Part shown: piece after piece, positions 7,440 through 7,941 of the stretch | Numbering within the stretch: position 1 is the stretch's first letter | How the letters are laid out: every line of letters begins with the position of its first letter | IMG/VR virus record: IMGVR_UViG_2531839449_000010 | Location: 1 to 8,488 of that record | Length of the DNA: 8,488 bases | Strand: one strand, 5' to 3' | Source of the DNA: a virus | Lineage: Duplodnaviria; Heunggongvirae; Uroviricota; Caudoviricetes | The notes under the pieces: generated by a model | Database searches by the model: none | Told to the model about the DNA's origin: nothing | Seen by the model: only the letters and a program-made list of their open reading frames with translations | Program-made: the position numbers and the translations under genes

Positions 7440-7787
7440 TCAGCGTAAAACAGCGTCATGTTGACCCTGTTTATCGAAAAGCTGTCCCTGGTCTTTCTGG
7501 AACAAAGTAAGCTCACCACCTTTATTTACAAACATCGGGGTGTTAGTTGTGTCTTCTTCTGATTTACTACCACGCATTGTCGGGCGTGTGAATTTTAGTT
7601 TATGGGAAACTGATACGCGATTTTCATCAAGTGAAGATAATTCGAATTCAACACATACCTTTCCTTTTTTGTTTGTGCTGTTTACGCCAAAGGCAACTTC
7701 ACTTAATACCGCGCCAAGTTTGTTAACAAATACCCCGCCGTCGAGGTCGTTAATGAAAACATTAACATCAGTTTGATGCTGGTTCAT
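7440..7787 (-). CDS. hypothetical protein (115 aa), AT-rich; first gene after the right-hand IS
   Basis: ATG at 7785..7787 with GGAG at a 6-nt spacing. Hand count gives about 39% GC for 7501..7800. No family recognised. Confidence 0.55.
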   Translation of the reverse strand: MNQHQTDVNVFINDLDGGVFVNKLGAVLSEVAFGVNSTNKKGKVCVEFELSSLDENRVSVSHKLKFTRPTMRGSKSEEDTTNTPMFVNKGGELTLFQKDQGQLFDKQGQHDAVLR

Positions 7788-7941
7788 ATTAATATCTCCG
7801 TGTAGAGGTGTGTTAAGGCTTCAGTTGTTCACTGCATTTAAAGCCTGGTTTTGTTTGTGAATTAAAAACTATCGCTGCCGTACTGCCTGAACCGCCCCGG
7901 AAATCCTGGAGACTAAACTCCCTGAGAAAGAGGTAAACAGG

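What the first reader, a model, noticed from the sequence alone, without database searches (positions are those of the whole stretch)
7440..7887. First gene of the block has only 100 nt of native upstream sequence before the IS
The IS boundary at 7888 lies 100 nt upstream of the start at 7787, so any native promoter or upstream operon sequence has been cut away. I find only weak sigma-70-like matches in 7788..7887. The whole block may be silent, or driven from IS-adjacent sequence.
Basis: partly seen in the sequence, partly recalled or inferred. Interest (0 to 1): 0.45.

Follow-up and report, generated by a model that had tools for sequence, protein, structure and literature searches.

The report
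IS629 insertion inside a prophage operon
A common E. coli jumping gene (IS629) has landed in the middle of a long prophage operon, so the "first gene with only 100 nt of upstream DNA" is an ordinary internal gene separated from a promoter that always lay kilobases away.

Summary
A 1310-bp IS629/IS1203 element begins at 7888. The 115-aa ORF (7440..7787, minus strand, YfdP family) starts 100 nt from it. That stretch holds no convincing sigma-70 promoter.

The interpretation needs correcting. The window is a whole short-read contig (ADUQ01000079.1) that ends inside two inverted IS629 copies, so the "block" is an assembly unit, not an operon. A 223-kb contig from STEC O111:NM strain K6908 is 99.98% identical to the window. 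It shows a simple insertion with a 3-bp GGC duplication and no deletion. RecT, exonuclease and an SSB-like gene continue directly beyond the IS.

The 100 nt consist of a 74-nt native intergenic spacer plus the last 26 nt of the SSB-like gene. In every uninterrupted relative examined (TL-2011c/P13374/PA2-type Stx2a phages), yfdP is an internal gene of the early-left operon, about 8 kb downstream of cI.

The IS end facing yfdP is IRL. IS3-family elements are known to supply outward promoter elements at IRR, not IRL. The most likely consequence is polarity on read-through transcription, which is inferred, not shown. IS629 polymorphism in these prophages is already well documented, so interest is low.

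The parts
7888..8488 (+). Left 601 nt of an IS629/IS1203 copy (IS3 family). IRL is at 7888-7912, orfA at 7942-8268, the ALIL frameshift pseudoknot at 8223-8339, followed by the start of orfB. The contig ends inside the element.
   Evidence: The full 1310-bp copy is at L003 2129-3438. RefSeq annotation of identical copies.
7885..7887 (-). One copy of the 3-bp target-site duplication (GGC on the minus strand). The other copy lies beyond the IS, outside the window.
   Evidence: L003 flanks read ...TTACTGGC|IS|GGCAGTACGG, against the uninterrupted TTACTGGCAGTACGG.
7862..7887 (-). Last 26 nt (23 coding nt plus the TAA stop at 7864-7862) of a 195-aa SSB-like gene that the IS split.
   Evidence: Alignment with the uninterrupted L001/L005. 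phrog_743 'single strand DNA binding protein', E = 8e-69. Read-through fusion of 266 aa in L003.
7788..7861 (-). Native 74-nt intergenic spacer between the SSB-like gene and yfdP, with Shine-Dalgarno GGAG at 7799-7796. No promoter, terminator or structured RNA was detected.
7440..7787 (-). yfdP-family gene (115 aa, function unknown), an internal gene of the prophage early-left operon.
   Evidence: PF27127:YfdP in precomputed hits. phrog_204, E = 1.3e-44. Synteny.
6555..7376 (-). yfdQ-family gene (DUF2303, 273 aa), the next gene in the same operon.
   Evidence: Pfam PF10065, E = 1.6e-65. Annotation.
724..1326 (-). MT-A70 methyltransferase gene truncated by the second IS copy. It keeps 185 of 208 native residues and ends in IS-derived codons.
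1..772 (-). Second IS629 copy in inverted orientation, with its IRL at 772 facing the block. The contig ends inside it.

Best explanation
The window is a short-read contig holding 7.1 kb of the early-left (recombination/accessory) operon of a TL-2011c/P13374/PA2-type lambdoid prophage integrated at argW. Both contig ends fall inside copies of IS629. One copy inserted by ordinary transposition, with a 3-bp duplication and no deletion, into the last 8 codons of an SSB-like gene, 100 nt upstream of yfdP. Its transposase points away from yfdP. yfdP never had a promoter of its own nearby. It is natively transcribed as an internal gene from a repressor-controlled early promoter several kilobases upstream. 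With the IS in place, transcripts must cross 1.3 kb of IS in antisense. About 1.17 kb of that is untranslated and C-rich, so the IS is expected to be polar through Rho unless the phage uses processive antitermination. The block is therefore silent in the lysogen, as any early-left operon is, and probably under-expressed after induction. Shown: the anatomy, the simple insertion, and the internal position of the gene in relatives. Inferred: the location of the driving promoter, and polarity.
For: The window equals the whole contig ADUQ01000079.1. Sister contig L003 (E. coli K6908, O111:NM) is 99.976% identical over 8488 nt. It is collinear with uninterrupted prophages on both sides of the IS: L003 1-2128 matches L005 7776-9903 and L003 3433 onward matches L005 9894 onward. 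The 3-bp GGC duplication is seen. In 13 uninterrupted relatives the order is cI - (RM or other cargo) - Rha/Ant - KilR - GamL - RecT - exo - 195-aa SSB-like - YfdP - YfdQ - ... - MT-A70 - xis - int, all on one strand. In distant relatives (ST64B, phiSTEC1575-Stx2k, Eeyore) yfdP again lies downstream of cI on the same strand. No promoter-like site reads toward yfdP in the 100 nt or anywhere in the IS. Promoter-like sites are fewer than expected across the whole block, 4 against 8.8 +/- 2.6. The outward -35 of IS3-family elements lies in IRR, and the outward promoter P3R of IS3 points in the transposase direction. Here IRL faces yfdP. The SSB-like reading frame stops at L003 2364, leaving 1175 nt untranslated before yfdP, with 30% C and 24% G on the transcribed strand. 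A candidate early promoter in relatives, TTGACT-17-TATATT, ends 7 nt before an isrK-like RNA match about 5 kb upstream of yfdP.
Against: No transcription data exist for this strain or for this part of any relative that I could find. The early-left promoter of this phage type has not been mapped, and I could not identify shared operators. L003 stops at RecT, so the immunity region of that very prophage was not seen. In the related phage PA8 the distal genes gp6-gp5 (MT-A70) are reported to be transcribed in lysogens from a promoter of their own, so the region is not one indivisible unit. Other internal promoters cannot be excluded. A weak match, TTAACA-16-TATTAA at 9 of 12, exists at 7816-7789.
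Confidence: 0.7

Rival explanations
1. A weak sigma-70 promoter in the native 74-nt spacer gives the downstream genes low constitutive expression, independent of the upstream operon. The candidate is TTAACA at 7816-7811 with TATTAA or TAATAT overlapping the start codon.
For: A 9-of-12 match was found with relaxed rules. Matches at 9 of 12 or better number 2, against 0.49 +/- 0.82 in shuffles of 7788-7950.
Against: The match fails the T-at-position-6 or the spacing criterion of the standard scan. Its -10 element ends at 7786-7789, so transcription would start inside the yfdP coding sequence and could not express yfdP. The spacer is identical in IS-free relatives, where the gene is mid-operon.
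Confidence: 0.1
2. An antisense promoter inside IS629 near IRL, or a hybrid promoter spanning the IRL/flank junction, drives the block.
For: IS elements often activate neighbouring genes. Three independent IS629 insertions lie within 340 nt upstream of yfdP, all with IRL facing yfdP.
Against: No promoter-like site lies on the outward-reading strand of the IS. The best junction hybrids are only 8 of 12 and lack the A at position 2 of the -10 element. Known IS3-family outward elements are in IRR, or oriented like the transposase, not reading out of IRL. Three insertions are too few to show an orientation bias, and two other IS629 copies in the same operon have the opposite orientation.
Confidence: 0.06
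3. In the window's own genome the IS-flanked segment has been inverted or moved by recombination between IS copies or as a composite transposon. What lies beyond the IS would then not be the rest of the operon.
For: The contig ends in both IS copies, so its neighbours are unknown. The copies are identical and inverted, which permits inversion. The second copy lacks a target duplication.
Against: The only longer assembly with the same two junctions is 99.976% identical and fully collinear with intact prophages. The outer flanks of the two IS copies are the native prophage neighbours, not a new target site.
Confidence: 0.04

Closest known systems
IS629 (IS1203v) insertion polymorphisms in Stx2a-converting prophages of E. 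coli O157:H7, e.g. phage PA2 versus PA8 (Yin et al. 2015, PMC4587872; Gong et al. 2023, PMC10810198)
   Same: Same IS (1310 bp, 3-bp duplications). Same prophage type and argW integration. PA2 also carries IS629 in the same MT-A70 gene that the window's second IS copy truncates.
   Different: The insertion sites differ. Here they are the 3' end of the SSB-like gene and codon 185 of MT-A70. In PA2 the site is mid-domain of MT-A70, and in PA8 an intergenic site elsewhere. This exact junction is absent from 5,426 complete E. coli genomes and was found in only two draft assemblies.
Phage lambda early-left (pL) operon, and the classical polarity of IS insertions in operons with its relief by N antitermination (my recollection: Adhya, Gottesman and de Crombrugghe 1974)
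   Same: A long leftward operon downstream of cI carries kil, gam, the recombination genes, accessory genes, xis and int. An IS lies within it.
   Different: This phage type has no recognisable N gene. It has a helicase/primase replication module, matching the 'Eru' non-lambdoid regulatory/replication types of PMC8044961 and PMC8951638. It also has isrK-like and C4-like RNAs upstream of a Rha gene. Whether antitermination operates is unknown.
E. coli K-12 cryptic prophage CPS-53 (KpLE1), yfdP-yfdQ-yfdR-yfdS-yfdT at argW
   Same: Same gene families (YfdP, YfdQ/DUF2303) in the same order, with the same integration locus.
   Different: DNA identity is only about 65%. The K-12 upstream region is a replication-gene remnant with iterons, not the SSB-like gene. 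There is no IS.

Membership tests
IS629/IS1203 (IS3 family) | Length about 1.3 kb with imperfect terminal inverted repeats beginning TGA | tested here: met
   1310 bp in L003. IRL is TGAACCGCCCCGGAAATCCTGGAGA and IRR is TGAACCGCCCCGGGTTTCCTGGAGA, identical at 22 of 25 positions.
IS629/IS1203 (IS3 family) | Two overlapping ORFs (HTH orfA and DDE/rve orfB) joined by programmed -1 frameshifting | tested here: met
   orfA is 108 aa (PF01527) and orfB 295 aa (PF00665 rve). ALIL pseudoknot at 121.5 bits. RefSeq note 'programmed frameshift' on identical copies.
IS629/IS1203 (IS3 family) | 3-bp target-site duplication | tested here: met
   GGC at the copy next to yfdP. The second copy does not show one (GGT versus CAT).
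Early-left operon of TL-2011c/P13374/PA2-type (Oslovirus) Stx2a prophages | Near-identical DNA and the same gene order between cI and int | tested here: met
   The 508 nt around yfdP are 97.6-100% identical in 126 complete genomes. YfdP is 98-100% identical in TL-2011c, P13374, phiON-2011 and PA2. Collinearity. Synteny.
Early-left operon of TL-2011c/P13374/PA2-type (Oslovirus) Stx2a prophages | Carriage of stx2a and the rest of the phage genome in this strain | not testable with these tools
   The window is 8.5 kb, and the sister locus covers only RecT to the csc genes.
YfdP protein family (PF27127 / phrog_204) | Significant profile match over the full length | tested here: met
   phrog_204 at E = 1.3e-44 over residues 1-114. 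PF27127 is listed in precomputed hits. My Pfam copy returned no PF27127 match, only a sub-threshold ChlamPMP_M hit.
Composite transposon (considered) | Two IS copies flank a segment, and the whole unit sits in a new target with a duplication at its outer ends | tested here: not met
   The IS copies flank the segment. But the outer flanks are the native prophage neighbours, collinear with IS-free relatives, and they differ from each other (GGC versus CAT).
IS-borne outward or hybrid promoter activating a neighbouring gene (considered) | A -35 element, or a complete promoter, at the IS end reading into the neighbouring gene | tested here: not met
   There is no site at 9 of 12 or better on the outward strand, and junction hybrids reach only 8 of 12. 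The end involved is IRL, not IRR. Promoter activity itself was not tested.

The most novel reading that the evidence does not exclude
Three independent IS629 insertions lie 35, 100 and 338 nt upstream of yfdP, all with IRL facing yfdP. This may not be chance. It could reflect selection to uncouple the yfdP-yfdQ accessory block from early-left transcription: relatives of this block inhibit chromosomal replication initiation when overexpressed in K-12 (PMC4776307). Alternatively it could reflect an undescribed outward antisense promoter at the IS629 left end that switches the block on in lysogens.
Probability: 0.05. Interest if true: 0.4.

Novelty: already known. Interest (0 to 1): 0.1.

Why it matters
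It matters little beyond correct annotation. The case shows how a short-read contig that breaks in IS repeats can make an internal operon gene look like an orphaned first gene. For STEC biology, IS629 position in this prophage type is known to change prophage behaviour: PA2 and PA8 differ in spontaneous induction and virulence. A polar IS between the recombination genes and the accessory/methyltransferase/xis-int part of the operon could therefore affect induction or excision in this O111 lineage. That is a testable but modest question.

Tried and rejected
(1) An exact-junction search of species-representative genomes found nothing.

(2) Junction searches of 5,426 complete E. coli genomes found no identical junction, only two nearby independent insertions.

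(3) I looked for a structured RNA or a known RNA family in the 100 nt. The fold z-score was 0.50 and Rfam gave no hit at E <= 1.

(4) I tried to locate the early-left promoter/operator in relatives by searching for sequence shared with the cI-cro intergenic region. No convincing repeats appeared.

(5) I compared the region with K-12 CPS-53 to see an independent upstream context. It is only about 65% identical, and its upstream region is an unrelated replication-gene remnant, so it says nothing about promoters.

(6) I searched the literature for transcription data on yfdP/yfdQ or on this phage type's early-left operon and found none.

(7) I could not extend the sister contig upstream of RecT.

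(8) The composite-transposon reading was rejected because the flanks are collinear with intact prophages.

Full report
**What is at the coordinates**

The plus strand from 7888 reads TGAACCGCCCCGGAAATCCTGGAGA..., followed by a 108-aa HTH transposase ORF at 7942-8268. The stretch 7888-8488 is a perfect inverted copy of 172-772 (601 nt, 100%). Both copies carry an ALIL frameshift pseudoknot, the IS3-family element (121.5 bits against a gathering score of 50). RefSeq annotates identical copies as 'IS3-like element IS1203 family transposase' with a programmed frameshift.

On the minus strand, ORF 7440..7787 (115 aa) starts with an ATG preceded by GGAG at an 8-nt spacing. Exactly 100 nt (7788-7887) lie between this start and the IS.

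The consensus scan finds no promoter-like site reading toward the gene in 7788-8100. A relaxed scan finds only TTAACA(7816)-16-TATTAA. This match lacks the T at position 6, and its -10 element overlaps the start codon, so it could not express yfdP. The stretch shows no RNA structure beyond chance (z = 0.50) and no Rfam match.

**Where the window comes from**

A look-up of the IS-truncated methyltransferase protein (724..1326) returned two contigs. One is ADUQ01000079.1, 8488 bp, and its reverse complement is the window. The window is thus a complete short-read contig that ends inside the IS on both sides. The 'block' is an assembly unit.

The other is a 223-kb contig, JHHM01000003.1, from E. 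coli K6908, a STEC O111:NM strain. It matches the whole window at 99.976%, with one mismatch and one gap, and contains both IS copies in full with their surroundings (locus L003).

**The insertion is simple**

In L003 the IS next to yfdP spans 2129-3438 (1310 bp). It runs from IRR to IRL, so the transposase points away from yfdP. Its flanks read ...GGTTACTGGC | IS | GGCAGTACGGCAGCGATAGTTTTTAA. Uninterrupted relatives read GGTTACTGGCAGTACGGCAGCGATAGTTTTTAA. That is a 3-bp GGC duplication with no loss of sequence.

L003 1-2128 aligns with L005 7776-9903 at 99%, and L003 3433 onward aligns with L005 9894 onward. RecT, the exonuclease and a 195-aa gene therefore sit directly on the far side of the IS.

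The window's 100 nt break down as follows:
- a 74-nt native spacer (7788-7861);
- the last 26 nt (7862-7887) of that 195-aa gene, including its TAA stop.

The 195-aa protein matches phrog_743, 'single strand DNA binding protein' (E = 8e-69). The insertion replaces its last 8 residues (WQYGSDSF) with 79 IS-encoded residues.

**What the gene is and where its promoter would be**

The 115-aa protein belongs to the YfdP family (PF27127 in precomputed hits; phrog_204, E = 1.3e-44). Its function is unknown. The next gene is YfdQ/DUF2303.

The 508 nt around yfdP are 97.6-100% identical in 126 complete E. coli genomes. The protein is 98-100% identical in Stx2a phages TL-2011c, P13374, phiON-2011 and PA2.

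In all 13 uninterrupted relatives inspected, the genes lie on one strand in this order: cI, variable cargo (a restriction-modification system, or HicAB and others), Rha/Ant, KilR, a 93-aa gene, GamL, RecT, exonuclease, the 195-aa SSB-like gene, YfdP, YfdQ, accessory genes, MT-A70, DUF1382, xis, int. yfdP is therefore an internal gene about 8 kb downstream of cI. In distant relatives (ST64B, phiSTEC1575-Stx2k, Eeyore) yfdP again lies downstream of cI on the same strand, 0.7-0.8 kb away.

Promoter-like sites are fewer than expected across the window's block (4 against 8.8 +/- 2.6), as expected for the interior of a long operon. In relatives, a TTGACT-17-TATATT site ends 7 nt before an isrK-like RNA match, about 5 kb upstream of yfdP, and a C4-like RNA and the Rha gene follow. 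This is a plausible early-left promoter, but it is unproven. I could not find operators shared with the cI-cro region.

**Consequences of the IS (inferred)**

Early-left genes are repressed in a lysogen whether or not an IS is present. After induction, RNA polymerase coming from upstream enters the IS at IRR and transcribes it antisense.

The SSB-like reading frame runs into the IS and stops at L003 2364. That leaves 1175 nt untranslated before yfdP, with 30% C against 24% G on the transcribed strand. Only one weak terminator-like hairpin lies on that strand. Rho-dependent polarity is the expected outcome unless the phage uses processive antitermination. This phage type has no recognisable N gene and belongs to the helicase/primase 'Eru'-like Stx phages (PMC8951638), so antitermination cannot be assumed.

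Activation from the IS is unlikely. In IS3-family elements the outward -35 lies in IRR, and the outward promoter P3R of IS3 has the same direction as the transposase. Here IRL faces yfdP and the transposase points away. No promoter-like site lies on the outward strand of the IS.

One caveat applies. In the related phage PA8 the distal pair gp6-gp5 (MT-A70) is reported to be transcribed in lysogens from its own promoter. The distal end of the region therefore need not depend on read-through.

**Comparison with what is known**

IS629 copy number and position are the main source of variation within Stx2a phage types of O157:H7 (PMC4587872). An IS629 in the MT-A70 gene of PA2 changes spontaneous induction and virulence (PMC10810198).

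This window shows the same phenomenon at two other sites. The exact junction is absent from 5,426 complete genomes and occurs in two draft assemblies.

The composite-transposon reading fails because the outer flanks are the native prophage neighbours.

**Verdict**

The feature is an ordinary, already-known kind of IS629 insertion inside a prophage operon, made to look special by contig boundaries. Interest is low.

The least ordinary point is the cluster of three same-orientation IS629 insertions within 340 nt upstream of yfdP. It is too small a sample to interpret.

Noticed in passing
L003 10552-10554 and 11865-11867 (outer and inner flanks of the IS copy whose left part is window 1-772): This IS629 copy has no target-site duplication. 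The flanks are GGT and CAT, while uninterrupted relatives read GAGATGGTTCCGGG. Four other IS629 insertions examined all have clean 3-bp duplications (GGC, CCG, CTT, TTC).
   Followed up: partly
window 724-1526 (minus strand): The MT-A70 methyltransferase keeps 185 of 208 residues and its complete Pfam domain, despite the IS. Its upstream partner is a 67-aa ORF (1323-1526). That ORF shares only its last ~21 residues with the 143-aa PNB-2 subunit, which directs the PA8 enzyme to 16S rRNA.
   Followed up: partly
window 1546-1597 (minus strand): Two tandem terminator-like hairpins (1597-1576 and 1565-1546) lie immediately upstream of the 67-aa/MT-A70 pair. A terminator is reported just upstream of gp6 in phage PA8, which is a parallel arrangement.
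   Followed up: no
L015 12438-13747 and L016 12136-13445: There are independent IS629 insertions 338 nt (O157:H7 ECP17-46, inside the SSB-like gene) and 35 nt (CEC13091, in the spacer) upstream of yfdP. Both have IRL facing yfdP, as in the window.
   Followed up: partly
L003 1564-2364: The IS insertion replaces the C-terminal WQYGSDSF of the 195-aa SSB-like protein with 79 IS-encoded residues. A terminal acidic/aromatic tail is functionally important in other SSBs (recollection), so the protein may be inactivated.
   Followed up: no
L005 4989-5064, 5089-5176, 6012-6095, 14302-14391: Uninterrupted relatives carry Rfam matches above gathering score in the early-left region. They are isrK (61.8 bits), C4 antisense RNA (77.4 bits) and two sRNA-Xcc1 copies, upstream of the Rha, ORF6N and AntA genes. 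None is present in the window.
   Followed up: no
window 3829-3891 and 4590-4652: A 63-nt direct repeat (81% identical) marks the 5' ends of two adjacent ead/Ea22-like paralogues. The mechanical ORF list merges the second one into a 370-aa GTG-started ORF (3857-4969) that relatives annotate as a shorter gene.
   Followed up: no
window 700-7950: Sigma-70-like sites are under-represented across the whole block, 4 found against 8.8 +/- 2.6 in shuffles.
   Followed up: no
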